Shown: piece after piece, positions 3,976 through 17,431 of the stretch
Layout: every line of letters starts with the position of its first letter
Numbering within the stretch: position 1 is the first letter of the stretch
Source of the DNA: an uncultured Actinomycetes bacterium
Lineage (GTDB): Bacteria; Actinomycetota; Thermoleophilia; RBG-16-64-13
Length of the DNA stretch: 64,000 nucleotides
NCBI GenBank assembly: GCA_963841735.1
Contig: CAWJDT010000001.1
Location: forward strand, 800,001-864,000
Direction: 5' to 3'
Notes under the pieces: model-generated
What the model saw: the letters and a program-made list of their open reading frames with translations, nothing else
Database searches by the model: none
What the model was told of the DNA's origin: nothing
Made by a program: the position numbers and the translations under genes

Positions 3976-4629
3976 TTGGACTTCGGTTCTCTTGGCTATA
4001 TTCTCGACCCCGCGGGTCTTCTATCTGATCTGCTGGGCCACATGGGTGTCTGGGTCTACGCGATCATCTTCGTCATTGTGTTCGCCGAGACTGGGTTGGT
4101 GTTCGCCCCATTTCTGCCGGGAGACTCTCTGCTTTTCGCGGCGGGTGCTCTTGCCGGCACGGGGCAGCTGGATCTCTGGGTCGTCACTGTGATCGTGGTG
4201 GGGGCCGCAGTGGTGGGCGACGGAGTAAACTACGCGGCCGGAAGGCTCTTCGGCAAGGTGATCGCGGCACGGACGGGGCGAATCATAAAGCGTCGGCATA
4301 TTGAAGCGGCCGAGGGTTTCTACGAGCGACACGGCGGCAAGGCACTTGTACTTGCGCGTTTTGTGCCCGTGGTCCGTACGTTCGCCCCCTTTGTGGCCGG
4401 TATGGGTAAGATGCCCCTCCGGCGTTTTTGGCTCTTCAATTGGCTGGGAGCGCTCAGTTGGACGGCCGTTTTCGTCACTGCTGGCTACTTCTTTGGGAGC
4501 CTACCTTGGGTCGAGCGCAATCTGACTCTTATGGTTCTACTTATCGTGGTTGCTTCTGTGATGCCGGTTGTAGTCAAGGCCGGACTTCATAGGCGCGGTC
4601 TGCGCCAAGCTGCAAAACAGAACGTCTAG
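3976..4629 (+). CDS. DedA/VTT family membrane protein
   Basis: FAETGL..PFLPGDSLLF and ARFVPVVRTFAPFVAG motifs. Confidence 0.93.
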   Translation: MDFGSLGYILDPAGLLSDLLGHMGVWVYAIIFVIVFAETGLVFAPFLPGDSLLFAAGALAGTGQLDLWVVTVIVVGAAVVGDGVNYAAGRLFGKVIAARTGRIIKRRHIEAAEGFYERHGGKALVLARFVPVVRTFAPFVAGMGKMPLRRFWLFNWLGALSWTAVFVTAGYFFGSLPWVERNLTLMVLLIVVASVMPVVVKAGLHRRGLRQAAKQNV

Positions 4630-4648
4630 GAAAGGAAAGGAACGGGCC

Positions 4649-4972
4649 ATGGATTGTCCGGTTTGCGGAGAGAAACTCAGGGAGATCGACCGATACGGCG
4701 TGACGATAGATATATGCCCGGGCTGCAAGGGCTGCTGGCTCGATCGTGGGGAGTTGGAGAAGATCGTCGCGATGGAGGAAGCAGAAGCTAGGCCGGCCTC
4801 AGGCGAGCGCCCCGCGCCCCGCGATTCCGTCGACCGTTCCCACGACTACGACCGCAAGAAGGACGACGACCACTATGACCGTGGCAGCCGGAGCGGCGAG
4901 GGCGGATACAGCAAGCCGAAGAAGCGCAGCTCTCTGCTCAGCGACATTCTTGGGAGCCTGGGCGGCGAGTGA
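4649..4972 (+). CDS. zf-TFIIB-type zinc-ribbon protein
   Basis: CPVC...IDICPGCKGCWLDRGELEK. Confidence 0.85.
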   Translation: MDCPVCGEKLREIDRYGVTIDICPGCKGCWLDRGELEKIVAMEEAEARPASGERPAPRDSVDRSHDYDRKKDDDHYDRGSRSGEGGYSKPKKRSSLLSDILGSLGGE

Positions 4973-7608
4973 AGACTGAGATGGTGGAAGATCCTCAAGG
5001 CCTCACCTCCTCAGAGGCAGCCGAGCGGCTGCGAGCGGAGGGGTACAACGAGCTCCCGTCGACTTCGAAGCGGGGGTTCCTGCGCATAGCGCTCGGCGTG
5101 GCTCGGGAGCCGATGTTCCTCCTTCTGGTGTTCGCCGGGGCTTTGTACGCTGCCCTGGGTGACCTGCAGGAGGCCATCATGCTGCTGGGCTTCGTGTTTG
5201 TGGTCATGGGCATCACCATTTACCAGGAGCGCAAGACGGAGCGCGCCCTCGAGGCTTTGCGCGACCTATCGAGCCCCCGCGCTCTGGTGATACGCGACGG
5301 GCAGCAAATACATGTTCCCGGCCGGGAGGTCGCGCGCGGCGACATAGTGCTCATCGCCGAAGGTGATCGCGTACCCGCGGACGCTGTGCTCCTCTCATGC
5401 AGTGACCTACAGGCCGACGAGTCACTGCTCACGGGCGAATCGGTGCCGGTTCGCAAGATGCCCCGCGAAGGCCTGGCCACCGAGGAGTCGGTCCGGGTGC
5501 GACCTGGCGGAGACGATCTGCCCAACATCTTCTCGGGCACCCTGATCGTGCAGGGCCAGGGAATCGCTGAAGTCACCGCGACCGGGCCCAAGACCGAGAT
5601 GGGTCTCATCGGCGTGGCTCTCGAGAACACCGGCGAAGAGAAGACCCAACTGCAGCGGCACAGCGCGCGCCTCGTGCGCAACATGGCCTTGGTGGGACTG
5701 TTGGTGTGCGCCTTGGTGGTGGTCATCTACGGGCTCACCCGCGGTCATTGGCTGGACGGCCTGCTGGCCGGACTCACTTTGGCCATGGCCACCTTGCCCG
5801 AAGAGATCCCGGTGGTGCTCACCATCTTCCTGGCCCTCGGAGCTTGGCGCATCAGCCAGAAGCGCGTCCTCACCCGCCGGATCCCCGCTGTGGAATCGCT
5901 GGGCTCCGCCACGGTGCTGTGCGTCGACAAGACCGGGACGCTGACTCTCAACAAGATGACCATCGCGCGCCTCCACTCCGCCGGGCGCTTCTTCGAGGTG
6001 TCGCCGGAGACCGAGGACGCGGAAGAGCCGGGTGCGGTCGCCGCAAACGATCCTGATCAGGGGCTGCCTGCTCTGGGTGAGCCAGCCTACGAGGATTTCC
6101 ATCAACTGGTGGAGTACGGAATCCTGGCCAGCGAGCTCAATCCGTTCGATCCCATGGAGAAGGCGTTCACGCGTCTGGGCGAGCGCTACTTCAAAGGCAC
6201 GGAGCATCTCCATGGCGACTGGGCCCTCGTGCACGAGTACCCGCTGTCGCGGGAGCTGCTGGCCATGTCTCACGTCTGGAAATCGCCGGCAGGCGACGCC
6301 TACGTCATCGCGTCCAAAGGAGCGCCGGAGGCCATAGCCAATCTGTGTCACCTTGACGAAGCGCAGCTGGCGGAAGTCTCGCGGTCCATAGACGCTATGG
6401 CCGAGGATGGACTAAGAGTGCTGGGAGTGGCACGGGCTCTTCACAGCGGAAGCGAGTGGCCCGGCGCGCAGCACGACTTTGATTTTGAATTCCTGGGCCT
6501 GGTCGGTCTCTCCGATCCGCCGCGCGCGTCGGTGGCTCAGTCACTCAAGGAGTGTGCCACCGCCGGCATCCGCGTGATCATGATCACCGGCGACTACCCC
6601 GGCACTGCCCGGGCGATCGCCCGCCGCATCGGCTTGGGACCGGTAGAAGTGGTCATCACCGGTCCGGAGCTGGACGTCATGAGCGACTCCGAGCTCCAGG
6701 AGCGCATCGGCGACTGCAATATCTTCGCCAGGGTGGTGCCTGAGCAGAAGCTGAAGCTGGTCCAAGCGCTCAAGGCGCGCGGCGAGCTGGTTGCCATGAC
6801 CGGCGACGGAGTCAATGATGCGCCCGCTCTCAAGGCCGCCAACATCGGAGTGGCCATGGGGCAACGCGGCACCGACGTAGCCCGCGAAGCCGCCTCACTC
6901 GTTCTGCTTGACGACGACTTCTCTTCGATCGTGGCCGCCGTCAGGTTGGGCCGCCGTATATTCGATAATCTCAAGAAGGCCGTCGCCTACATCTTCGCCG
7001 TACACACGCCCATCATCGGTCTGACCCTCATCCCACTCGCCCTGCGCTGGCCGCTGATCTTCTCGCCGGTGCACGTGGTGTTCTTGGAGCTCATCATCGA
7101 CCCCGCGTGCTCGGTGGTGTTCGAAGCGGAGCCCGAAGAGAAGAACGTGATGACTCGCAAGCCTCGTCAGGTAGGCGAGCCTCTGTTTGGCCGAAAGGTC
7201 CTGGGGATCAGCGTCCTGCAAGGAGCAGTCGTGCTCGCCATCCTGGTGGCGGTGTACGCCATCGCCCGGGGGCGCGGCCAGAGCGACGATCAGGCTCGGG
7301 CTCTCACCTTCACAGCGCTGGTAGTGGCCAATCTGGCCTTGATCCTCACCAACCGCTCGTGGAGTCGCGGCTTCATCAGCACACTGAGGACTCCCAACAA
7401 AGCATTGTGGTGGGTGCTCGGGGGAGCGGTCGTGCTCCTAGGTCTTGTTCTCTATATCCCGGCCTTGCGTCAGTTGTTCGGCTTCGGCGTGCTGCACGCC
7501 GCCGACATCTTCATATGCCTGGCCGCGGGCGTGGTGAGCGTCGCCTGGTTCGAAGGCCTGAAGGCCATCAAGGCAAAAAGGGAGCGCGCCGCGGAGTCCC
7601 TGGCATAA
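4969..7608 (+). CDS. Cation-translocating P-type ATPase (P2-like)
   Basis: TGES, PEE, DKTGTLT, KGAPE, MITGD, TGDGVNDAPAL motifs. Confidence 0.95.
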   Translation: MKTEMVEDPQGLTSSEAAERLRAEGYNELPSTSKRGFLRIALGVAREPMFLLLVFAGALYAALGDLQEAIMLLGFVFVVMGITIYQERKTERALEALRDLSSPRALVIRDGQQIHVPGREVARGDIVLIAEGDRVPADAVLLSCSDLQADESLLTGESVPVRKMPREGLATEESVRVRPGGDDLPNIFSGTLIVQGQGIAEVTATGPKTEMGLIGVALENTGEEKTQLQRHSARLVRNMALVGLLVCALVVVIYGLTRGHWLDGLLAGLTLAMATLPEEIPVVLTIFLALGAWRISQKRVLTRRIPAVESLGSATVLCVDKTGTLTLNKMTIARLHSAGRFFEVSPETEDAEEPGAVAANDPDQGLPALGEPAYEDFHQLVEYGILASELNPFDPMEKAFTRLGERYFKGTEHLHGDWALVHEYPLSRELLAMSHVWKSPAGDAYVIASKGAPEAIANLCHLDEAQLAEVSRSIDAMAEDGLRVLGVARALHSGSEWPGAQHDFDFEFLGLVGLSDPPRASVAQSLKECATAGIRVIMITGDYPGTARAIARRIGLGPVEVVITGPELDVMSDSELQERIGDCNIFARVVPEQKLKLVQALKARGELVAMTGDGVNDAPALKAANIGVAMGQRGTDVAREAASLVLLDDDFSSIVAAVRLGRRIFDNLKKAVAYIFAVHTPIIGLTLIPLALRWPLIFSPVHVVFLELIIDPACSVVFEAEPEEKNVMTRKPRQVGEPLFGRKVLGISVLQGAVVLAILVAVYAIARGRGQSDDQARALTFTALVVANLALILTNRSWSRGFISTLRTPNKALWWVLGGAVVLLGLVLYIPALRQLFGFGVLHAADIFICLAAGVVSVAWFEGLKAIKAKRERAAESLA

Positions 7609-8997: not shown

Positions 8998-9072
8998 GGT
9001 TGACTCCCCTTATACTCGCGCACCCTACCGGGCGATGGTAGCACGGGACCGGAGTCTCACTCACTGTGACTA

Positions 9073-9531
9073 CCGGCTCAGGCCGGTGCCTGCCGACTCG
9101 GCACTCGCCGGGGTTGCCCTTTGCTTCGCTCGGGCGGCAAAAGCCTCGCTGGCAGACACCGACCTGAGCCGGCACCCTCCGCCCAGCGGCGCCGGTCCCG
9201 CGCTTCCCGCGCGGTAGATGGTTTTCGGTGAGGGGTGCCTGCCGACTCGGCACTCGCCGGGGTTGCCCTTTGCTTCGCTCGGGCGGCAAAAGCCTCGCTG
9301 GCAGACACCGACCTGAGCCGGCACCCTCCGCCCAGCGCGCCAGTCCCGTGCTTCCAGCACGGTAGATGGTTTTCGGTGAGGGGTGCCTGCCGACTCGGCA
9401 CTCGCCGGGGTTGCCCTTTGCTTCGCTCGGGCGGCAAAAGCCTCGCTGGCAGACACCGACCTGAGCCGGCACCCTCCGCCCAGCGGCGCCGGTCCCGCGC
9501 TTCCCGCATGGTAGCTGTTCTCTCTGAGGGG
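9073..9531. repeat. Three tandem ~148-bp GC-rich palindromic repeats
   Basis: Units starting GTGCCTGCCGACTCGGCACTCGCC at 9086, 9235 and 9383 are near-identical; the first copy folds CCGGCTCAGG (9073) onto CCTGAGCCGG (9163-9172). Confidence 0.92.
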
Positions 9532-9609
9532 GCTTCTCCGCACACGCGGCTGCTTGTCAACCCAAGGTCTGATTACAGGGCGACGTCTATTCGTGTGACC
9601 CTGGCGACG

Positions 9610-10575
9610 ATGGACACGCCGCCAAGACTGCTCGATCAAATGCGCGAGGCACTACATGCGCGGCACTACAGCCTCCGCACAGAACGGGCCTACTGCGCCT
9701 GGGTGAGGCGCTTCATCTACTTCCACCACGTCCGCCATCCAGGTGAGATGGGGGGCCCGGAGATCAACGCCTTTCTCACTCACCTCGCGGTGGCGGAGAA
9801 CGTGAGCGCTTCGACGCAGAACCAGGCGCTGGCGGCGCTGCTCTTCCTGTACCGGCACGTACTAGACCGCGAAGTGGGCGACTTGGACGGAGTAATCCGT
9901 GCCAGGCACAGTGCCAAGGTCCCGGTGGTGATGACTCGCACCGAAGTGCGGGAGGTGCTTGCTCAACTCGCGGGCGACAAGTGGCTCATCGCCTCTCTAC
10001 TCTATGGCTGCGGGCTGCGACTACTGGAGTGCCTCCGGCTCCGGGTCAAGGACATCGACTTCTCCCGGGGCGAGATCACAGTGCACGATGGCAAGGGCGG
10101 GAAGGATCGTGTCACCATGTTGCCCGCGTCACTTGCCGATCCGTTGCAGCATCACCTTGTCTCGGTCAAGACGATCCACCAGGCCGATCTGGCCGACGGC
10201 TGGGGTCGCGTGCTCCTTCCTAACGCTCTTGATCGGAAGTACCCGAACGTGCCGGCCGACTGGCGCTGGCAGTGGGTCTTTCCCCAGGCCAACCGCTGGA
10301 AGAACAGCAGAACTGGGGAGGAAGGGCGGCATCATGTTCACGAGACCCTTGTTCAGCGCGCGGTGAAGGAGGCCGTAAGTCGCGCCGGTGTTGTCAAGCA
10401 CGTGGGGTGCCACACCTTCCGACACTCCTTCGCTACTCATCTCCTGGACGCGGGTTACGACATCCGCACGATCCAGGAACTCCTGGGCCACAAGGACGTT
10501 CGCACCACCATGATCTACACCCATGTGCTCAACCGCGGCGGCCAGGGCGTCCGCAGCCCGCTTGACTCCCTGTAG
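9610..10575 (+). CDS. intI: Integron integrase
   Basis: [49 protein letters not shown], plus the integron-specific insert '[20 protein letters not shown]...WQWVFP'; start ATG 9610 (the longer ORF just runs through the repeats). Confidence 0.97.
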
Positions 10576-10677
10576 GGCGGGCATATACAGATGGGATGAG
10601 AAGGCCGACCTCCCCCGGAGTACCGTGAGGTCCCCAATCAGAGTCGGGCTCGTGGGCCCAAATGAAGGAGGCCAGCC

Positions 10678-11760
10678 ATGTGCGATGCTAGCACCACCGA
10701 GCAAGCGAAGGTGACCGTGGGTCTCGATCTGAGCGACCGTTGTTGTCAGATCTGTGTGCTCGACGAAGCGGGCGAGGTGACCGAGGAGGGCCGGGTGACG
10801 ACCAAGCCGGAAGCCTTGCGTCGCCGCTTCTCCGGGGCGGATCCGCTACGCATCGTGATCGAGGCCGGCACCCACTCCCCCTGGGTTAGCCGTCTGCTTT
10901 CCGAACTTGGACACGACGTTGTCGTGGCCAATCCCCGCAAGCTCCGCTTCATCTACCAGAACGACTCGAAGTCAGACCGGGTGGACGCCGAGTACCTGGC
11001 CCGGGTCGGTCGTCTGGACCCGGAGCTGCTGGCCCCCCTCACCCATCGGAGAGCCGAGACCCAGTCCGACCTCGCGCTTGTGCGCAGTCGCAATGCCCTG
11101 GTCAGGGCTCGCACCCGTCTGATCAGTCATGCCCGCGGCTGCACGAAGTCCTTGGGCAGCCGCCTGCCCACCTGCGCGAGCGACGTCTTTGCCCAAAAGG
11201 CCGGGCCGTGTGTCCCCGAGGAGCTTGCTCCCGCCCTGGCTCCGGTCCTCACCGTCATCCAGAACATCTCCGATGAGATCCGCGCTCTCGATCAGAAGAT
11301 CGAAGACATGGCCAAGGAGCGCTACCCAGAGACCGCGCTTCTCTCCCAGGTGCCCGGCGTGGGCACGCTTACGGCCACAGTCTATGTCCTTACCGTGGAA
11401 GATCCCGAGCGCTTCCCCAAGTGCCGCTCGGTGGGCTCGTATCTCGGCCTCAGGCCCCGGCAGGCAAGCTCCGGTTCCCTGGAGCCTCAGCTGCGCATCA
11501 CCAAAGCCGGGGACGAGCACCTGCGCTGGCTCCTCGTGAGCGCCGCCCACTACATCCTCGGGCCCTTCGGCCCGGACTCGGATCTCAGGCGTTGGGGTCT
11601 TGCCTTGGCCGCGCAGGGCGGCAAGCGGGGCAAGAAGCGAGCGGTAGTGGCGGTGGCCCGCAAGCTCTCGGTGCTCCTCCTGCACCTCTGGAGGACCGGT
11701 GAGGTCTACGAGCCACTGCGCAACGTCCGGCTCCGCGGCGAGACTGCGCCCACCACCTAG
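10678..11760 (+). CDS. IS110 family transposase/recombinase
   Basis: DEDD residues in GLDLS, IEAG, KSDRVDA; C-terminal SSG serine motif; AVVAVARKL. Confidence 0.95.
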   Translation: MCDASTTEQAKVTVGLDLSDRCCQICVLDEAGEVTEEGRVTTKPEALRRRFSGADPLRIVIEAGTHSPWVSRLLSELGHDVVVANPRKLRFIYQNDSKSDRVDAEYLARVGRLDPELLAPLTHRRAETQSDLALVRSRNALVRARTRLISHARGCTKSLGSRLPTCASDVFAQKAGPCVPEELAPALAPVLTVIQNISDEIRALDQKIEDMAKERYPETALLSQVPGVGTLTATVYVLTVEDPERFPKCRSVGSYLGLRPRQASSGSLEPQLRITKAGDEHLRWLLVSAAHYILGPFGPDSDLRRWGLALAAQGGKRGKKRAVVAVARKLSVLLLHLWRTGEVYEPLRNVRLRGETAPTT

Positions 11761-12100
11761 GAGCGGTGAAGATGAGAGATGCCGACGGGAAGGATCGATA
11801 ACCAAGGAAGACCGGCGGGTGAACCCATCGCAGGAGACCAGCAAAAAGACCAACCGCCCAGGGTGAAAGCGACTGCGCACACAGACTCGGCCGTACAGAA
11901 CGACACCAACCCGGTGCCGTCCCCAAGGCCGCTATACAGATAGCAGCGCTTCCCCCCGGCCGGACCCCAACGTGCACCGGGTCCCGCCATAGGTTCCCGA
12001 CAAAAAGTGCGAATGGAAGCGTGGCCGTGGTCTTGGCTCTTCGCGGCGGAAGAGGGATGATAGAAACCGAGCAGAGGAGGAAGAAGCAACCCAAGAATCG
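11761..12100 (+). ncRNA. Putative bridge/seek RNA region of IS element A (boundaries approximate)
   Basis: CAGACT (11882) is the reverse complement of core plus right flank; CGGCC/GGCCG stem; TATACAG (11933) equals left flank plus core; ATGGAAG (12013) equals the IS right end. Confidence 0.6.
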
Positions 12101-12130
12101 CTCTTGACACCGGCCGGCTTCTCATGGAAG

Positions 12131-12284
12131 TCTGCATAACCCCAAGACCGCGCGGGCGTCTTGGGTTCAGAAACCGCTCGGTATGCCGACCAGGGGGGCT
12201 GTCTTGAGAATCGCAGCCGGAGTTATGCAGACAACCTGGTGCTGCGACGGTTGAGTTGGGCAGACTGGATAAGCATTGTTAGAC
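12131..12284 (+). other. Candidate attI region; crossover core GTTAGAC at 12278-12284
   Basis: GTTAGACAC (12278) is the exact complement of GTGTCTAAC (13128) ending cassette 1; no attC-type hairpin immediately upstream; repeated TATRC(A/C)GAC-like motifs. Confidence 0.7.
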
Positions 12285-12311
12285 ACAGACGCTGGGAGGC
12301 GCGCGGCGCGA

Positions 12312-13121
12312 ATGTCGTGGATGAGCGACAGCGGCACCGAGTACAGACTGTGCTTGCTCGACACAAACGCCTTGAGCAACATCGTCGAGCATCGCGACAC
12401 CTTTGGGCACGCTTTCATCGAGCGGTTTCCCCCAAGTGATTGGGCGCCATGCTGGACAATCTACAACGTCATCGAATTGCGTCGTGCCCCAGAGCATCTA
12501 CGACTATACGATGCCTGGCTCGACTTCTTCTCAAGGTATCCGAGCTTCCTTCTTGAGCCATATTCGCGCATCGTGGCGGCAGAGGTGGCGGCCTATCACC
12601 ACTATCCAGCTGGACCTCCGTTGCTCAACGCCTTCACTCTGGCTGGGTCCGAAGACAGGCACTTCCTGCGGCCGTTCCTAGAGAAGCTCTTTGTGCAGGA
12701 CTGGATGATCGAGCTTGAGGCCGGGTGGCGCGACGATGAGAATGACACCCTCCGGGAGTGGGTCTCACGTTCGAACGACGGTCGCAAAGCTGACCAGTAC
12801 GTCGCCGAGTCAGTGGTTGTTCACTTGGCCGAGAATCACCAATCTTGGACGGCGGGACTCCTGAACTCGGGTAGCACACTGGACATAAACCGATTCCCTG
12901 CGCTGCAGGCTATGCTGTATTCGCAGTTCTATCGTATTCGTGAGCCGGGGCGGGTTCATGAGGCAAGCGACGTTACGGACGTTCGGATCATGGCGGCGGC
13001 GCCCTATATGGAGGCGGTTGTCACGGAGAGGTTCCAGGCAGAGGTCTTTCGCAAGGCAAAGAGAGCGCTTTCGTCGATAGCACAGCTTGATGTCGTGAGG
13101 GTTGGTGAGTTGTGTGGCTGA
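12312..13121 (+). CDS. Gene cassette 1: PIN-like domain protein
   Basis: N-terminal LLDTNALS, mid-protein E, C-terminal DVTDVRIMAAAPYMEAVVTE; start ATG 12312 or 12321; bounded by attI and attC1. Confidence 0.6.
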   Translation: MSWMSDSGTEYRLCLLDTNALSNIVEHRDTFGHAFIERFPPSDWAPCWTIYNVIELRRAPEHLRLYDAWLDFFSRYPSFLLEPYSRIVAAEVAAYHHYPAGPPLLNAFTLAGSEDRHFLRPFLEKLFVQDWMIELEAGWRDDENDTLREWVSRSNDGRKADQYVAESVVVHLAENHQSWTAGLLNSGSTLDINRFPALQAMLYSQFYRIREPGRVHEASDVTDVRIMAAAPYMEAVVTERFQAEVFRKAKRALSSIAQLDVVRVGELCG

Positions 13122-13129
13122 CGCTTCGT

Positions 13130-13220
13130 GTCTAACAAGTGCGTGCAACCGACACCGGCGTTGTCTGCTGCATGGAGTACCATGGCCAACGGGCGCGGCT
13201 GACGCACTAGAACGTTAGCG
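13130..13220 (+). other. attC site 1 (intact)
   Basis: R'' GTCTAAC 13130; arm AGTGCGT(G)CAACCG pairs with CGGCTGACGCACT leaving an extrahelical G; R' GTTAGCG 13214. Confidence 0.93.
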
Positions 13221-13255
13221 TTACAAGGGAGAGTGGGGTTCTGGTGGGGGGTCGA

Positions 13256-14323
13256 ATGATCAAGCCGAAGTCGTACATCGTAGGGTTGGGTCTGTTGCTG
13301 ACCTTGGGGGCGGCAGTCGACGGTTGCTCAGGGCGTTCCTCCGATCAAGTCACTTTCGAGAGCGAATACGTTTCTCTGCAACTGCCCGACTCGTTCGTCG
13401 GAGGCGATCCAGCGGATCCGAATGTGATGGCCGCGCTCAAGAAGCATGCCGAGAAGAACCCTGATTCCGAGACCCGTGCCGACCTCAAGTCGTACCTGGA
13501 CGGACTAGAGAGTGACATCCGAAGGGACGAGGAGTACCACTTCGTAAGGAATGGCCCTCTTCTTCTCCTCTGGGGTGAGCCGGATAAGGACGGCTCCATG
13601 GCGGAGGTCTACGTGTCGCGCGTTCTCGTGCAGAACATACTCCCGCTGACCGACGGTGACTCCTCAATGGAAGCCCTCGTGAAGGGTTTGAACTTCTGGC
13701 CAGAGTCAGAGTGGTACATCGATAATCTCACCGCTGATGCTGCGGAGGTGTTGCTCTACCATGTCAAAGAGAGTCCCGACGACATGACGGTGCGCGAACA
13801 TCATGTGTTCAAGGCCACGGCTGAGTATGTCTACGAGTTCACCTACGTCTACTACGACGAGATTTCGGCAGACCTGGACTCTGTCTTCGCCTCAAGTGCC
13901 GACACTGCTACCGTCAAGTGGCCCTACAACTCACAGAAGCAGTCTGTGGACCAGAAGGCCTACCGGCAGGATGGGGACTGCGAGTCTCTCGTCGAGAAGG
14001 CAAAGTACGCTCTAGAAAAGGCATACAAGGAACTGGGGACATGCGACCCCGGGGTGGTGACACCCAAGGTACTGAGCGAGATCGAGCCGGGTGTTGTCTT
14101 CATCGTCGTCGAGGACGCTGAAGCTGCACTTGCACCCGAAGCTGCAACCGTGCGGAATGAGGTCGCCTACTGGGGCGATGCTGGGACCTATACGGTTGGT
14201 TCGTGCTCCGAGTCTGGCAAGACGTACGGCGTATTCCATGATATGGCGGACCCTGGATGGTATCGAGTTTCCGAAGGCGGTCAGCCGGGCTCCAGGAGAT
14301 ATGAGATACCGACAGACAAGTAG
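13256..14323 (+). CDS. Gene cassette 2: predicted lipoprotein of unknown function
   Basis: Signal peptide ending AVDG-C; cassette bounded by GTTAGCGTT (13214) and its complement AACGCTAAC (14343). Confidence 0.7.
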   Translation: MIKPKSYIVGLGLLLTLGAAVDGCSGRSSDQVTFESEYVSLQLPDSFVGGDPADPNVMAALKKHAEKNPDSETRADLKSYLDGLESDIRRDEEYHFVRNGPLLLLWGEPDKDGSMAEVYVSRVLVQNILPLTDGDSSMEALVKGLNFWPESEWYIDNLTADAAEVLLYHVKESPDDMTVREHHVFKATAEYVYEFTYVYYDEISADLDSVFASSADTATVKWPYNSQKQSVDQKAYRQDGDCESLVEKAKYALEKAYKELGTCDPGVVTPKVLSEIEPGVVFIVVEDAEAALAPEAATVRNEVAYWGDAGTYTVGSCSESGKTYGVFHDMADPGWYRVSEGGQPGSRRYEIPTDK

Positions 14324-14422
14324 CCGCCCGAAAGTGAGACTGAACGCTAACAAGATGGCATGAAAAGGACGCTGCGCCGACACTGTCGTTGTGAGGAGCA
14401 ACGATAGGAAGGAGAAGCGCCG

Positions 14423-15415
14423 ATGCCAACTTACTACCTGGGCCTCGATGTCCACAAGGTCCGCACCCAGTACTGTCTGATGGATCTGGGCGGTGAGATC
14501 CTATCCGAGGGCAATGTCCCCACCGAAGAAGCCGCGTCTCTGGTGTCCGAGATCGATTCTGCCGTGGTGCTGGAGGCCACAGGCAGCTGGCACGCCACCT
14601 ACGACGCGCTCGTCGCCACCGGAGCCGCTGTCAAGCTGGCACACCCCGCCCGCATCAAGGCCATCGCCTCCGCTAAGGTCAAGACCGACAAGATCGACGC
14701 CCGCATCCTGGCGCATCTGTTGCGTGCTGATCTCATCCCCGAGGCCTGGGCACCTCCCACTTCAGTGCGGGAACTTAGGGACCTGGTGCGGCTTCGTTGG
14801 CGCTTCATCTCCCAGCGCACCACTGCCAAGAACCGCATCACCAACCTGCTGGCCCGCGAGAACCTGCGCTTCGCCGGCACCGATCTGTTCGGCAAGAGTG
14901 GCAGGAAGTGGCTGGAGGCGCTGGATCTGCGGGCACACACCCGGAGTCTCATCGCCTTGCTGCTCGTCTCCATCGAGGAGGCCGATGCCCACGTGGCCGT
15001 TCTCACCTCTCGACTGCATGAGCTGCTCGACCGGGACCCGGACATGGGTCTGCTCATGACCATACCCGGTGTGGGTTTCATCACCGCGGCCACGCTCTCC
15101 GCCGAGGTCGGTGACTGGAGCCGCTTCTCCTCGGCAAGGCAGGTCTCCTGCTACTTCGGCATCATCCCCTCGGTGCGGAGTTCAGGTACTGTGGCCCACT
15201 ACGGACACATCACGCGGGCCGGGAGTCCTCACGCAAGGCGAGCGCTCGTCGAGGCGGCGCACACCGCCAAGAAATTGCCGGGGCCGGTCCGCCACCACTA
15301 CCTCGCTCTAGTCAAGCGTCGCGGCAAGAAGGTCGCCCTCGTCGCCGCAGCCCGTGTGCTGCTGGAACTGTCCTGGACCCTCCTGCACAAGAAGGAGGTG
15401 TTTCAGGCGGCTTAA
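14423..15415 (+). CDS. IS110 family transposase/recombinase
   Basis: LGLDVH, LEATG, KTDKIDA (DEDD); IPGVG; VRSSG; ALVAAAR. Confidence 0.95.
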   Translation: MPTYYLGLDVHKVRTQYCLMDLGGEILSEGNVPTEEAASLVSEIDSAVVLEATGSWHATYDALVATGAAVKLAHPARIKAIASAKVKTDKIDARILAHLLRADLIPEAWAPPTSVRELRDLVRLRWRFISQRTTAKNRITNLLARENLRFAGTDLFGKSGRKWLEALDLRAHTRSLIALLLVSIEEADAHVAVLTSRLHELLDRDPDMGLLMTIPGVGFITAATLSAEVGDWSRFSSARQVSCYFGIIPSVRSSGTVAHYGHITRAGSPHARRALVEAAHTAKKLPGPVRHHYLALVKRRGKKVALVAAARVLLELSWTLLHKKEVFQAA

Positions 15416-15610
15416 GAGGAGAGCCCGTTGCACGCGCTGGGAGCGTGTTCGACTCCCGTTAACAAGATTCGGCCTCCTCACCGCCGCATAGCCCATCTGA
15501 GCGCCTGGATAGATGAGCGCGAATGGAAGCTTGGCCCTCGAAGCCGTTGATGGTGGAAGGCGCGCGTTCGGGGACGGTAGAATCAAGAGCGTGCGAAGCT
15601 CAAGATGAAG
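15416..15610 (+). ncRNA. Putative bridge/seek RNA region of IS element B (boundaries approximate)
   Basis: GTTGCACGCGCT (15427), GGGAG/CTCCC stem, TAACAAG (15460), CCATCT (15493) and ATGGAAG (15523) match the attC target flanks and the IS circle junction. Confidence 0.75.
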
Positions 15611-15736
15611 ACTTGCACTCTGAGTCCTTTTCATGGAAGTGCGTGCAACCGACATCCTTCATTGTCTATCGCATGGAGTACCATGGCCAACGGGCGCGGC
15701 TGACGCGCTAGAACGTTAGCCATACAGGGGGTTCTA

Positions 15737-16480
15737 TTGGACCGAGCTAGGGCGGTTGATCTGTACCTTCAGTGTTGTGGCTTGCAGAATGATCTCGAAC
15801 CGAAGCCCGTGGTCGCCAAGTACACGGAGTTTCTCGACGAAGCAGTTGCCCAGTTGTCGATCAATGACTTCGCAATCAACTCCAAGCAGCATCTGCGGGA
15901 CATAGCCAACTTCGTCAATGAGTTCGCTTTCAACCACCAGAGGCTGCGTGCTTGGGAACGGATACTGCCTGATCTGAGCGACCAGGAACGGCTCGATGTC
16001 CTGATCGAATTCGTCGACCCAATCGTCTATCTCTGCATGGGAGCTCCCGCCGCGTTGAAGGGGCGCCTTCACTTCTCGATGAGGTCACTTCTCTCTTGGC
16101 GAACGAACATCGTGTCCCAGGCTGGACTTACTCTCCGCCGCCTGCGCACTCCACGTTTGAGGGCGCTCGTTCTCAGGCCCGGCTTTGGGATAGCTGGCCA
16201 AGATTGCGGGATTGCCTAGGGGTGCTCAACAACCATGATTTCAAGAGGCGCGTATACGAGTTCAGGGATCACTTCGAACATGGGAGTCCTCGGCTGGTAG
16301 AGTTCGGTGAGAAACTAATGGCGTGGAGAGATGCGCATGGTCGTGTTCTGGGCGTCGAACCAGCCATTTCGCTGGCGAGTGTCGTAGAGTCGCTAGGTCC
16401 GCAGCAGTCGGCCTCAGTTGCTGCCTATGATGCATACGTCGCTTTGGTGGAGGAACAGCATTCGGCGATCCTACAAGAGC
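15737..16480 (+). pseudogene. Gene cassette 3: frameshifted HEPN-like (RxxxxH) protein, 3' end and attC missing
   Basis: Follows R' GTTAGCC (15715); overlapping ORFs 15737..16219 and 16096..; FRDHFEH motif in the second frame. Confidence 0.55.
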
Positions 16481-16732
16481 CAGATCGAGGGCGACGGTAT
16501 CGCGGCTGCCTATGTCGCCCAGAAGGAAGCCATCGGCCAGCAGAATGTGGCGGTGATCAAGCTCATGCAGGAGATAGCAGCCGGCAATATCCAAATCGTG
16601 CCCCAGGTCCTGGTGGGCGGCGAGGGCTCAGCGAGCGGCAACCTGTTCAATGCCTGGCTGTCTCAGATGATCTCTCAGAACGTGCCGAAGACCGAGGCAG
16701 ACAAGAAGGCGGAGAAGAAGGCTGCTGGGTGA
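16481..16732 (+). pseudogene. Orphan 3' fragment of a flotillin/SPFH-like gene
   Basis: IEGDGIAAAYVAQKEAIGQQNVAVIKLMQEIAAGNIQIVPQVLVGG resembles flotillin C-termini; no own start. Confidence 0.5.
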
Positions 16733-16744
16733 TCTGAGGGCTTG

Positions 16745-17431
16745 TCATACCCTGAACGCCGACGGACAAGCATCGGCCAGCAGGCACTCACCGCAGCGGG
16801 GGCGCTTGGCGTCGCAGACCGCCCGGCCGTGTTCTATCAACAGGTAGGTCAGGCGGAACCAGTCTTCTCTCGGGACGATCTCCATCAGCTCGCGCTCGAC
16901 CTTCTCGGAGTCGTGCGACGTGGCTAGGCCCAGTCTTTGGCTTAGGCGGTTGACGTGGGTGTCTACCGCTATGCCTGCGTCCGGGTCTGACGCGTACGCT
17001 TCGGGATGGGCGTTGCCCAGCACTACATTGGCCGTCTTGCGCGCCACTCCCGGCAGGGTCAGCAGGCCGGTCATGCTCGCGGGGATGTCTCCGCCGTAGT
17101 CGGCCAGGATCTTATGGGCGGCACCGATGATGTGCTTCGTCTTGTTTCTGAAGAAGCCTGTGGGCCTGATGTCGGCCTCGAACTCCACCGGGTCGGCACC
17201 GGCGTACGCCTCTACGGTGCGGTACTTCTTGAATAGCTTGGCGGTGACTTGGTTGACCATCTTGTCTGTACACTGGGCCGAGAGGATGACGGCCACCAGT
17301 AGTTCCCAGCCGTTGCCGAAGTCGAGCACTATCCCTGCGCTGGGGTATTCAGCCTTCAGGCGTGCGAGTATTTCCAACGCGTACGCGCGCTTGCCCGCCG
17401 ACGGAGTGCTCTGGACTACCTTCTTCACCAT
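16745..17431 (-). CDS. nth: Endonuclease III
   Basis: LLVAVILSAQCTD, HhH LPGVARKTANVV, VDTHV, [4Fe-4S] C-x6-C-x2-C-x5-C; start ATG 17431. Confidence 0.95.
   Translation of the reverse strand: MVKKVVQSTPSAGKRAYALEILARLKAEYPSAGIVLDFGNGWELLVAVILSAQCTDKMVNQVTAKLFKKYRTVEAYAGADPVEFEADIRPTGFFRNKTKHIIGAAHKILADYGGDIPASMTGLLTLPGVARKTANVVLGNAHPEAYASDPDAGIAVDTHVNRLSQRLGLATSHDSEKVERELMEIVPREDWFRLTYLLIEHGRAVCDAKRPRCGECLLADACPSAFRV

What the first reader, a model, noticed from the sequence alone, without database searches (positions are those of the whole stretch)
10584..12140. Second, divergent IS110 aimed at the intI-attI region, with the same donor ends but a different target guide
Seen: removing 10591-12130 restores CATATACAG|TCTGCATAAC. 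The non-coding region has CAGACT (11882; reverse complement of AGTCTG), a CGGCC/GGCCG-closed hairpin, then TATACAG (11933), the same guide-hairpin-guide layout as IS B. Both elements share ends AG|ATGGnATGAnAAG...CTTnTCATGGAAG| and the motif GCGAATGGAAGCnTGGCC (12009, 15519), although their transposases are clearly divergent. Inference: two natural reprogrammings of one scaffold, one to attC and one to an attI-associated motif. I am not aware of attI-region targeting being described. The right-target match is only 6 nt and the second donor guide is not clearly identifiable.
Basis: partly seen in the sequence, partly recalled or inferred. Interest (0 to 1): 0.82.

Follow-up and report, generated by a model that had tools for sequence, protein, structure and literature searches.

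The report
Insertion sequence aimed at integron attI edge
A small RNA-guided jumping gene of the IS1111 family has five identical copies in this genome, each at one conserved 11-base motif between the end of an integron integrase gene and the integron's gene-capture site; this integron-linked target did not turn up in the literature I could search.

Summary
Window 10591-12130 is a 1540-bp IS1111-type element. It has a 360-aa DEDD transposase, a 370-bp 3' non-coding region and 8-bp subterminal inverted repeats.

The genome holds 5 copies that differ at only 2 alignment columns. All 5 sit at ...TATACAG|TCTG..., 15-20 bp after the stop of intI or of an intI 3' stub, and 148 bp before the attI crossover G|TT. 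A sixth attI locus is an uninterrupted site that fixes the boundaries; it has one mismatch to the motif.

The motif recurs, uninterrupted, after intI in related genomes: exact in 6 of 17 loci read, and with 2 mismatches or fewer in 14 of 17. A metagenomic relative with 89% transposase identity sits at the same place in a different integron.

In 30 related elements, the two RNA segments flanking a hairpin inside a covarying stem track each element's own flanks. This is the published IS1111 seekRNA layout.

Relatives at 78-87% identity carry other guides and sit at other sites.

RNA guidance, activity and the effect on the integron are inferred, not shown. I found no described attI-side targeting. 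I rate it a new variant of a known kind, of moderate interest.

The parts
9235..10575 (+). Integron integrase gene intI. It is on the same strand as the cassettes (the 'inverted integrase' arrangement). The integrase domain is residues 132-446; the long N-terminal part of the ORF may be an over-extended start.
   Evidence: NCBIfam TIGR02249 scores 484.5 bits against a cut-off of 265. Pfam PF00589 and PF13495 also match.
10582..10590 (+). Left half of the target, CATATACAG, ending in the core AG. It lies 7-15 bp after the intI stop codon.
10591..12130 (+). IS1111-type insertion sequence ('IS A'), 1540 bp. By the 7/3-bp extension convention it is 10589-12128.
   Evidence: Five copies in the genome differ at 2 alignment columns. 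An uninterrupted site confirms the boundaries.
10596..10603 (+). Left subterminal inverted repeat, ATGAGAAG.
   Evidence: The ends are conserved in relatives.
10678..11760 (+). DEDD transposase / bridge-type recombinase, 360 aa.
   Evidence: PF01548 and PF02371. NF033542 'IS110 family RNA-guided transposase' scores 217.7 bits against a cut-off of 140. PDB hits: ISCro4 at E 1.4e-11 and IS621 at E 2.7e-10.
11869..11949 (+). Predicted seekRNA / target-binding module, 81 nt. The stem GCGACUGCG (11869-11877) pairs with GCAGCGC (11943-11949) and encloses guide-hairpin-guide.
   Evidence: RNAalifold on 30 relatives gives 17 pairs, 8 of them with compensatory changes.
11878..11887 (+). 5' guide CACACAGACT, complementary to the top strand of core plus right target. 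CAGACT pairs with AG+TCTG, which is 6 nt in this genome. It matches 9 of 10 at a same-genus attI variant, AGTCTGTGTA (L108).
11888..11931 (+). Hairpin CGGCC...GGCCG between the two guides.
11933..11939 (+). 3' guide TATACAG, identical to the left target plus core, so it would pair with the bottom strand.
11974..12019 (+). Second conserved stem-loop (GCAC 11974-11977 pairing with GUGC 12007-12010), followed by AUGGAAG (12013-12019), which is identical to the last 7 nt of the right end. Candidate donor-side guide.
   Evidence: ATGGAAG is present in 28 of 30 aligned relatives.
12104..12109 (+). TTGACA, conserved about 21 nt from the right end in relatives. Candidate -35 of a promoter formed at the circle junction (inferred).
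   Evidence: The junction-promoter concept comes from a PMC11187229 passage.
12118..12125 (+). Right subterminal inverted repeat, CTTCTCAT.
12131..12278 (+). attI region. It runs from the right half of the target (TCTGCATAAC, 12131-12140) to the crossover G12278|T12279. It contains GTTATGCAGAC (12222-12232) and GTTGGGCAGACTGGATAA (12255-12272); both are inverted copies of the target's right half.
   Evidence: The right flanks of six loci stay alignable up to CATTG|TT and then diverge. The crossover-proximal copy (12255-12272), read on the opposite strand, is a 1-mismatch copy of the target 11-mer; GTTATGCAGAC (12222-12232) is the inverted copy of the target's right half.
14355..15639 (+). Second IS1111-type element ('IS B'), used as a comparator. 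It is inserted in an attC (GCTAACAAG|...|TGCGTGCAACC). It has the same terminal motifs and the same guide-hairpin-guide layout.
   Evidence: An uninterrupted similar attC lies at 13122-13216.

Best explanation
IS A is a mobile, seekRNA/bridge-RNA-guided insertion sequence of the IS1111 group. Its target guides are set to the 11-bp sequence TATAC-AG-TCTG.

This sequence is the centre of an imperfect palindrome (TATACAG-T-CTGCATA). In this bacterial lineage the palindrome is conserved 10-40 bp after the end of intI and marks the intI-side edge of attI.

Proposed steps:
1. The 3' non-coding region is transcribed into an RNA of about 81 nt.
2. CAGACU in that RNA pairs with the top strand (AG+TCTG), and UAUACAG pairs with the bottom strand.
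3. The DEDD recombinase exchanges strands at the AG core between the target and the joined ends of a circular copy.
4. Insertion follows in one orientation, without target duplication.

Because the motif is present at every attI of this genome, the element has filled 5 of 6 such sites. The sixth has a mismatch in the left guide match.

Insertion leaves the intI reading frame and the 148-bp attI intact. The element's last G even restores GTCTGCATAAC. The effect is to put 1.5 kb between intI and attI, with the transposase co-oriented with both.

Shown here: the anatomy, copy number, sites, uninterrupted sites, conservation of the motif, and covariation of guides with flanks.

Inferred: RNA expression, base-pairing as the recognition mechanism, the circular intermediate, current activity, and neutrality for the integron.
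For: Family and anatomy
- Searches place it in the family. The non-coding region lies 3' of the transposase gene, and the subterminal repeats have 7/3-bp extensions, as PMC11187229 defines the IS1111 family (passages).

Sites in this genome
- There are 5 copies, differing at 2 alignment columns.
- All 5 have the flanks ..CCGCTTGAC..TAG..GCATATACAG| and |TCTG(C/T)ATA...
- The flanks are far more diverged than the copies. attI identity is 90-95% where BLAST aligns it, and two right flanks fall below the BLAST threshold. This argues for separate insertions.
- An uninterrupted site exists at C1 near 392030.
- The exact 11-mer is expected 0.41 times and is found 0 times uninterrupted. None of the 15 sites with one mismatch is occupied.

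The motif belongs to integrons
- Of the 17 intI 3' ends read in related genomes, 6 carry it exactly, 3 with 1 mismatch and 5 with 2 mismatches. All are uninterrupted.

A second case
- L053 has 89% transposase identity. It lies 21 bp after an intI stop at TTTATACAG|TCTGCCCATG. Its 5' guide is changed to CAGGCAGACT, which fits that site better, at 8 nt.

Guide assignment
- In alignment A1 (30 elements), the stem enclosing the guides has compensatory changes.
- The 5' segment matches the reverse complement of its own right flank with mean 6.11 nt (n=27). Non-cognate pairs give 2.81 (n=754).
- The 3' segment matches its own left flank beyond the core with mean 4.20 nt (n=20). Non-cognate pairs give 0.40 with a maximum of 3 (n=560).
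- The order, top-strand match 5' of bottom-strand match, is what PMC11187229 section 9 reports for IS1111 seekRNAs of 82-96 nt.

Reprogramming in close relatives
- L054, L055 and L056 (78-83% identity) carry the guides GCTAGCAGCCT and CTAAGAG and sit at CTAAGAG|GCTGCTGAAC.
- L007, L010, L016 and L020 (85-87% identity) sit at CTAGCAG|....
Against: - No RNA, circle junction or excision product was observed. Laying four public runs gave only fragments of relatives.
- In this genome the right-side guide pairs with only 6 nt including the core. The 4 nt beyond the core is a match that 21.6% of non-cognate pairs also reach.
- A second donor-side guide could not be identified.
- The identity of the 5 copies could partly reflect gene conversion rather than recent transposition.
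- C1_1356k and C5 have nearly the same attI, so fewer than 5 independent right flanks exist.
- An 80% relative in another family of the same class (G494, L125/L130) has similar guides (GACGCAGACT and CTATGCAG). It sits at ..CAGGCAG|TCTGTGTC.., with no intI detected by tblastn in the 16 kb fetched. The lineage is therefore not confined to integrons.
- Only two integron-linked cases are known: this genome and L053.
- The left-junction pattern was found in 1 of 401 sampled genomes of the phylum, G000 only.
Confidence: 0.85

Rival explanations
1. IS A is just another IS1111-attC element. On this reading the 103-bp stretch 12130-12232, closed by GTCTGCATAAC/GTTATGCAGAC, is an attC or a fossil attC, and the element targets its R''-like end.
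For: - GCATAAC and GTTATGC resemble the RYYYAAC and GTTRRRY boxes (consensus recalled, not from a call).
- The stretch has a typical attC length and folds well as single-stranded DNA, with z-scores of -4.1 and -4.8.
- Relatives at 53-55% identity, and IS B, do sit in attC sites.
Against: - The site lies upstream of the attI crossover, with no cassette between it and intI.
- The fold is an 11-bp closing stem with three branches, not the single long bulged hairpin of the genome's attC.
- The pairing extends outward (GTCT/AGAC), not inward to an L box.
- The inverted repeat is poorly kept in related integrons, while the 11-mer is kept.
- The insertion point is 5' of the box, whereas IS B inserts 3' of its box.
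Confidence: 0.07
2. The five copies spread passively. On this reading a block of intI stub, IS and attI was duplicated, or the IS was copied between attI loci by homologous recombination or gene conversion, so the shared site says nothing about targeting.
For: - The C1_1356k and C5 attI regions are nearly identical.
- The window and C5 share the same first cassette.
- The flanks offer 35-150 bp of homology.
Against: - The IS copies differ at 2 of 1540 alignment columns, while all five left flanks differ at several of the last 35 nt.
- The C6 and C1_402k right flanks share little beyond about 10 nt with the others.
- L053 shows the same junction in an unrelated integron, with a co-varied guide.
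- The uninterrupted site is the one with a guide mismatch.
Confidence: 0.06
3. Site choice is made by the protein recognising the palindromic DNA (or an IntI-bound complex), and the RNA matches are incidental.
For: - The target is an imperfect palindrome.
- The right-side RNA match is short.
Against: - Guide-flank covariation is seen across 27 and 20 elements, with non-cognate controls.
- There is published proof of principle for the family (PMC11187229 abstract and section 9; PMC11208160 passages).
Confidence: 0.03

Closest known systems
IS1111-attC group (ISKpn4, ISPst6, ISPa21, ISPa25; Tetu & Holmes 2008 and Post & Hall 2009, both seen only as citations; ISKpn4, ISPst6 and ISPa25 in PMC11187229 passages, ISPa21 in a PMC11616780 passage)
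   Same: Same family and architecture: DEDD transposase, 3' non-coding region encoding a seekRNA, and subterminal inverted repeats. They also insert in one orientation at a conserved integron recombination-site sequence. IS B in this window is of this kind.
   Different: Their target is one end of attC, inside the cassette array. IS A's target is a palindromic motif between the intI stop and attI, 148 bp upstream of the attI crossover. It occurs once per integron and lies outside any cassette.
[quoted passage not shown]
   Same: An IS1111 element that uses a conserved functional end-sequence of another mobile genetic platform as its landing site.
   Different: A different host element and sequence. 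The seekRNA paper gives nearly 900 insertions for IS4321. IS A has 5 insertions here plus 1 relative.
ISEc11 / ISPa11 seekRNA systems and the IS621 bridge RNA (PMC11187229; PMC11208160)
   Same: The two-strand recognition logic. For the IS1111 members, the top-strand match also lies 5' of the bottom-strand match, around a hairpin in an RNA of 82-96 nt.
   Different: Those systems were tested experimentally; IS A was not. IS621 encodes its RNA in the left end. IS A's donor-binding part is only half identified (AUGGAAG).

Membership tests
IS110 family, IS1111 group | DEDD (RuvC-like) N-terminal domain plus the IS116/IS110/IS902 C-terminal domain | tested here: met
   PF01548 at 2e-17 and PF02371 at 1.5e-18. 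NF033542 scores 217.7 bits against a cut-off of 140. PDB relatives are the ISCro4 and IS621 transposases.
IS110 family, IS1111 group | The longer non-coding region lies downstream of the transposase gene | tested here: met
   370 bp on the 3' side (11761-12130) against 87 bp on the 5' side (10591-10677). The criterion is from PMC11187229.
IS110 family, IS1111 group | Subterminal inverted repeats with terminal extensions of 7 bp (left) and 3 bp (right) | tested here: met
   ATGAGAAG and CTTCTCAT. With the core AG counted on the left, the extensions are AGATGGG (7 bp) and GGA (3 bp). The repeat is 8 bp here, shorter than the 11-13 bp called usual. Relatives have 9-10 bp.
IS110 family, IS1111 group | Site- and orientation-specific insertion without target duplication | tested here: met
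   5 of 5 copies are at the same sequence and in the same orientation. The uninterrupted site has a single AG.
IS110 family, IS1111 group | seekRNA with a top-strand match 5' of a bottom-strand match to the target | tested here: met
   The enclosing stem covaries. This rests on DNA sequence only; the RNA itself was not observed.
IS110 family, IS1111 group | Circular intermediate with a junction promoter; RNA co-purifies with the transposase | not testable with these tools
   Only a conserved TTGACA at 12104-12109. No circle-junction record appeared among the contigs laid.
IS1111-attC group | Inserted within an attC site of a gene cassette | tested here: not met
   The site lies between the intI stop and the attI crossover. 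It does not fold like an attC. IS B (14355-15639) does meet this feature.
Integron (context of the target) | Integron-type integrase next to an attI followed by attC-bounded cassettes | tested here: met
   TIGR02249 scores 484.5 bits. Cassette 1 runs from G|TTAGAC at 12278 to an attC with the complementary GTCTAAC at 13129. Related attCs lie downstream of four of the six attI loci.

The most novel reading that the evidence does not exclude
IS A and its 89% relative may be 'integron riders'. On this reading they land in the outermost of three inverted copies of an IntI-site-like motif that bound attI, a spot that leaves both intI and attI working. They are co-oriented with intI, with no terminator-like site between (simple scan only). 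Their transposase and seekRNA would then be transcribed by read-through from intI, so the element moves when the integron is switched on. The insertion would also change how cassettes are expressed in integrons whose integrase points toward the array.
Probability: 0.2. Interest if true: 0.7.

Novelty: new variant of a known kind. Interest (0 to 1): 0.5.

Why it matters
Until now, the insertion sequences known to specialise on integrons were the IS1111-attC group and the group IIC-attC introns, and both hit attC.

This element is a natural example of the same RNA-guided machinery set to the other side of the integron. It brings three useful things:
- an uninterrupted-site control in the same genome;
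- near-saturation of the available sites;
- close relatives (78-89% identity) whose guides and flanks changed together, which amounts to a natural retargeting series for a compact recombinase.

It also draws attention to a conserved palindrome at the intI edge of attI in integrons with a co-oriented integrase. The role of that palindrome could be tested; one candidate is an accessory IntI site.

The mechanism itself is already known, so the advance is in natural history and in a testable integron question, not in principle.

Tried and rejected
- Rfam, E-value mode, window 9000-17000: no match. The library has no hit for this RNA here.
- Promoter idea: I considered that TTGACT-16 nt-TATACA just left of the insertion point might be the cassette promoter. 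The consensus scan of 10300-12500 found 0 sigma-70-like sites, because TATACA lacks the T at position 6. I dropped the idea. The same scan found no terminator-like site on the + strand, which is only a weak statement.
- Second donor guide: by eye I compared the reverse complement of AG+ATGGGATGAG with the conserved GGACCCCAAC (6 of 8) and with CCCATC near 11822. Neither is convincing, and neither covaries with ATGGA/ATGGG left ends in relatives.
- Public reads: 20 rows hold part of the stretch, the best share being 0.24. Laying X1, X2, X5 and X19 gave only fragments of relatives. No record bridges a junction by 31 nt, and there was no circle junction. One contig from an RNA library covers 11843-11977 with 3 other letters and 1 gap, which does not show transcription.
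- Genome-contig scan with the transposase: 19 loci, all at 61% identity or less. For those where my end patterns matched, the flanks read showed no intI 3' end; for L047 and L050-L052 no end was found and no flank was read.
- Left-junction pattern in 401 genomes of the phylum sample: only G000.
- Guide pattern in 251 genomes of the class sample: G000 plus G494 with one mismatch, and the latter is not at an integron.
- C4:236963-237127, a 55-aa match to IntI: on reading it is the end of another tyrosine recombinase, and the motif does not follow it.
- Papers: PMC2447020 (Tetu & Holmes) is not held; Post & Hall 2009 was seen only as a citation.
- Supplements: closed. The target logos for more than 300 IS in the supplement and figures of PMC11187229 could bear on the novelty claim, and I could not see them.
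- ISfinder could not be consulted.
Full report
**What is at the coordinates**

Window 10591-12130 is bounded by ATGGGATGAGAAG... and ...CTTCTCATGGAAG. It holds one long ORF on the + strand, 10678-11760, of 360 aa.
- The ORF carries the two Pfam domains of IS110-family transposases.
- It passes NCBIfam NF033542, 'IS110 family RNA-guided transposase', at 217.7 bits against a cut-off of 140.
- Its closest solved relatives are the ISCro4 and IS621 recombinases.

The non-coding DNA is 87 bp before the gene and 370 bp after it. The 8-bp inverted repeats ATGAGAAG and CTTCTCAT sit inside the ends. If the ambiguous AG is counted on the left, the terminal extensions are 7 and 3 bp. These are the features that Siddiquee et al. 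(PMC11187229, passages and sections 9 and 13 read) give for the IS1111 family as opposed to IS110 proper.

**Surroundings**

Upstream, 9235-10575 on the same strand encodes an integron integrase. TIGR02249 scores 484.5 bits against a cut-off of 265, over residues 132-446. Its stop codon is 15 bp before the element.

Downstream, the first cassette begins at G|TTAGAC (12278|12279). It ends in an attC whose GTCTAAC (13129) is the complement of that box. So attI lies between the element and 12278, and intI points toward the cassettes. This is the arrangement of the group that a review calls the 'inverted integrase group' (PMC3575428, one passage).

A second IS1111-type element, 14355-15639, interrupts the attC of the second cassette at GCTAACAAG|TGCGTGCAACC. 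An uninterrupted attC of the same type is at 13122-13216. Its transposase is 32.7% identical to that of IS A.

**The element in the whole genome**

The 2.82-Mb assembly (8 contigs, 89.7% complete) holds 5 copies. They differ at only 2 alignment columns: one substitution and one 1-nt run-length difference.

All 5 have the same junctions:
- On the left, ...CCGCTTGAC...TAG/TGG...GCATATACAG|, which is the last codons of intI.
- On the right, |TCTG(C/T)ATA....

tblastn finds only two full intI genes: the window's, and one on C6 with 78.9% identity. A 65-aa remnant lies next to the C5 copy. The C1_1356k and C1_402k copies have stubs of about 45 and 100 bp.

The right flanks stay alignable for about 148 bp, up to CATTG|TT, and then diverge into different first cassettes. 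The exception is the window and C5, which share the first cassette.

A sixth locus of the same kind, on the minus strand of C1 near 392030, is uninterrupted. It reads ..GTAGGGCGGCACATACAG|TCTGCATAAACCCAAG... This fixes the boundaries and shows a single AG, so there is no target duplication.

attCs related to the window's lie downstream of four of the six loci.

**Is the shared site more than chance or duplication?**

The reconstituted 11-mer TATACAGTCTG is expected 0.41 times in this genome. It occurs 0 times uninterrupted and 5 times split by the element. There are 15 uninterrupted sites with one mismatch (16.2 expected), and none is occupied. Among them are the uninterrupted attI locus (CATACAGTCTG) and three copies of the crossover-proximal attI repeat read on the other strand (TATCCAGTCTGCCC).

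The flanks are much more diverged than the copies. Every left flank differs within the last 35 nt. attI identity is 90-95% where BLAST aligns it, and the C6 and C1_402k attI fall below the threshold. Separate insertions into pre-existing diverged sites is the simplest reading. Gene conversion among copies cannot be excluded, and the near-identity of the C1_1356k and C5 attI is a caveat.

**The target is a conserved integron feature**

TIGR02249 finds integrase matches in 20 of 61 genomes of the same order, 11 of 61 over the cut-off. Of the 27 places listed I read the 18 whose match reaches the 3' end of the model. I left out 9: L092, which is the window itself, and L103, L106, L107, L111, L113, L114, L117 and L118, whose matches stop short of the 3' end.

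One of the 18 is the occupied C6 locus. The other 17 score as follows against the 11-mer, which lies within about 10-40 bp of the model's end:

| Mismatches | Loci | Count |
|---|---|---|
| 0 | L094, L096, L099, L100, L101, L102 | 6 |
| 1 | L093, L104, L108 | 3 |
| 2 | L095, L098, L105, L109, L115 | 5 |
| 3 | L097 | 1 |
| 5 | L110, L116 | 2 |

All 17 are uninterrupted.

The motif is the centre of an imperfect palindrome, TATACAG-T-CTGCATA. Its right half, GTCTGCATAAC, is repeated in inverted orientation as GTTATGCAGAC (12222-12232) and as GTTGGGCAGACTGGATAA (12255-12272), next to the crossover.

I infer that these are integrase-binding or otherwise functional attI repeats. This was not tested. 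The element's terminal G restores GTCTGCATAAC after insertion.

**Relatives and the guide RNA**

Transposase relatives are present in 15 of 61 genomes of the order at E <= 1e-40. There are also 19 loci in the species-representative collection (all at 61% identity or less) and 39 metagenome contigs.

Almost all share the terminal motifs, but their flanks differ.

In the 3' region they share this scaffold:
..GACUGCG-[about 10 nt]-hairpin-[about 8 nt ending AG]-AU(U)GCAGC.. then ..GGACCCCAAC.UGCACC-hairpin-GUGCG.AUGGAAGC..

RNAalifold on 30 of them predicts 17 pairs, 8 with compensatory changes. The covarying stem is the one that encloses the two variable segments. The window's own 187 nt fold at -69.3 kcal/mol, z = -2.6.

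The variable segments track the flanks:

| Element | Identity to IS A | 5' guide | 3' guide | Site |
|---|---|---|---|---|
| L023 | 62% | AACGAACACT | CGTTAG | GCGTTAG\|TGTTCATTTG |
| L028 (second copy, same genome) | 62% | AACGAACACT | CGTTAG | GCGATAG\|TGTTCGTTT |
| L054 | 83% | GCTAGCAGCCT | CCTAAGAG | CTAAGAG\|GCTGCTGAAC |
| L017 | 59% | AAAGGCUCU | UUUGCAG | TTTTGCAG\|GGCCTTTATC |

A control computed from the stored files gives these figures:

| Segment compared | Cognate mean | n | Non-cognate mean | n | Non-cognate maximum |
|---|---|---|---|---|---|
| 5' segment vs reverse complement of own right flank | 6.11 nt | 27 | 2.81 nt | 754 | 6 |
| 3' segment vs own left flank beyond the core | 4.20 nt | 20 | 0.40 nt | 560 | 3 |

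The order, top-strand match 5' of bottom-strand match, and the size of the stem-enclosed module in IS A (81 nt, 11869-11949) agree with the IS1111 seekRNAs described in PMC11187229 section 9 (82-96 nt).

For IS A itself the matches are CAGACU (6 nt with the core) and UAUACAG (7 nt with the core). The right-side match is short in this genome. However, the full 10-nt segment fits 9 of 10 at a same-genus attI variant, AGTCTGTGTA (L108).

**A second integron-linked case, and a counter-example**

L053 is a 1759-bp metagenome contig with 89% transposase identity. It carries the element 21 bp after an intI stop.
- The left flank aligns with the window's intI 3' end at 82% mean column identity, with a 1-nt indel.
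- The site reads TTTATACAG|TCTGCCCATGCAGG, which resembles the L100, L102 and L105 type of attI.
- Its 3' guide is unchanged. Its 5' guide is CAGGCAGACU, which pairs with 8 nt of that site.

By contrast, relatives at 78-87% identity (L007, L010, L016, L020, L054-L056, L079) have other guides and sit at sites with no intI 3' end in the flank read.

A guide-pattern search in 251 genomes of the class sample found one more element, in G494, with 80% identity and the guides GACGCAGACU and CUAUGCAG. It lies at ..CAGGCAG|TCTGTGTC.., next to a fragment of another IS110-family gene. No intI was detected by tblastn in the 16 kb fetched. It does show that the lineage is not confined to integrons.

Several relatives at 53-55% identity (L063, L069, L084 and others) sit in attC-like sites near the GTTAGG end. 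Integron sites have therefore been adopted as targets more than once in this clade.

**Mechanism and its status**

The best-supported reading is the published IS1111 mechanism with a new address. An RNA from the 3' region pairs with both strands of TATAC-AG-TCTG, and the recombinase exchanges strands at AG with the joined ends of a circular copy.
- The conserved AUGGAAG (12013-12019), identical to the right terminus, is a plausible donor-side guide.
- The conserved TTGACA (12104-12109) is a plausible -35 of a junction promoter.
- Both are inferences from position and conservation and from the family literature.

The RNA, the circle, present-day activity and the consequence for the integron were not observed. 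The public-read attempt gave nothing usable.

**Comparison, membership and novelty**

IS A meets every sequence-level criterion of the IS1111 group that I could test. It fails the defining feature of the IS1111-attC subgroup, because its site is not an attC:
- the site lies upstream of the attI crossover;
- the local single-strand fold is a short closing stem with three branches, not an attC hairpin;
- the insertion point lies on the other side of the box compared with IS B.

The searches were:
- 'IS1111' with 'attI' and 'integron': 11 papers held all three terms, 10 were listed, and passages were read in three;
- 'seekRNA' with 'IS1111';
- 'bridge RNA' with 'integron' and 'IS110';
- 'IS1111-attC'.

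In PMC11187229 the words attI and intI occur 0 times. In PMC11208160 'integron' occurs only in the reference list.

None of these describes an IS aimed at the intI-attI junction. This is not proof of absence: the two founding IS1111-attC papers were not readable, supplements were closed, and ISfinder is not available here.

I rate it a new variant of a known kind. The machinery is known and known to be programmable. The target class and the near-saturation of a genome's attI loci are new. Interest is moderate.

Noticed in passing
Own genome: C1:810591, C1:1356034, C1:402285, C1:~392030, C5:149999, C6:30002: One 2.8-Mb genome has six attI loci but only two full intI genes. The other four keep only a 3' intI stub of about 45-200 bp plus the motif and attI. 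Two of the loci (C1 near 402k and 392k) lie 10 kb apart on the same strand. I have no explanation for why the stubs always retain the last codons.
   Followed up: partly
window 12279-13216 and own genome C5:~148913-149850: The same first cassette (a 281-aa ORF with no Pfam or NCBIfam match) and its attC (97.9% identical) sit at two attI sites that are only about 91% identical to each other. This fits independent IntI-mediated insertion of one cassette at both sites.
   Followed up: no
window 14355-15639: A second IS1111-type element lies in an attC. Its transposase is only 33% identical to IS A's, yet it has nearly the same terminal motifs and the same GCGAATGGAAGC box. Its guides, GTTGCACGC and GTTAACAAG, flank a GGGAG...CTCCC hairpin.
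   Followed up: partly
L063, L069, L084, L086, L091 (and L045, L062 for one flank each): Relatives at 53-55% identity are inserted at ..GCGAGCG(C/G)A(A/G)GCGAG|TCCGCTGCA(G/A)CG..GTTAGG.., which looks like the R' side of attC sites. That would be a third integron-linked address in this clade.
   Followed up: no
L034-L040 (one Acidobacteriota MAG record): Seven copies of a 58% relative all sit at ..AATAGTCTCCCGACCGAAGGGAG|GGAGGAGGTT(C/T)GCG.., a repeated palindromic extragenic-type sequence.
   Followed up: no
window 9085-9338 (upstream part of the long intI ORF): tblastn of the 446-aa ORF against its own genome shows short internal repeats (92-100% identity over 31-52 aa) just upstream and within the N-terminal extension. 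This suggests a tandem DNA repeat before the true intI start.
   Followed up: no
L130 (G494:C10) 4271-6714: An 80% relative of IS A abuts a fragment of another IS110-family transposase gene. Its left flank contains GGTGCTAGCAG, the sequence at which the L007-type relatives insert.
   Followed up: partly
window 12117: IS A's right inverted repeat lacks one C compared with nearly all relatives (CGGCTTCTCAT against GGCCTTCTCAT). This shortens the repeat to 8 bp.
   Followed up: no
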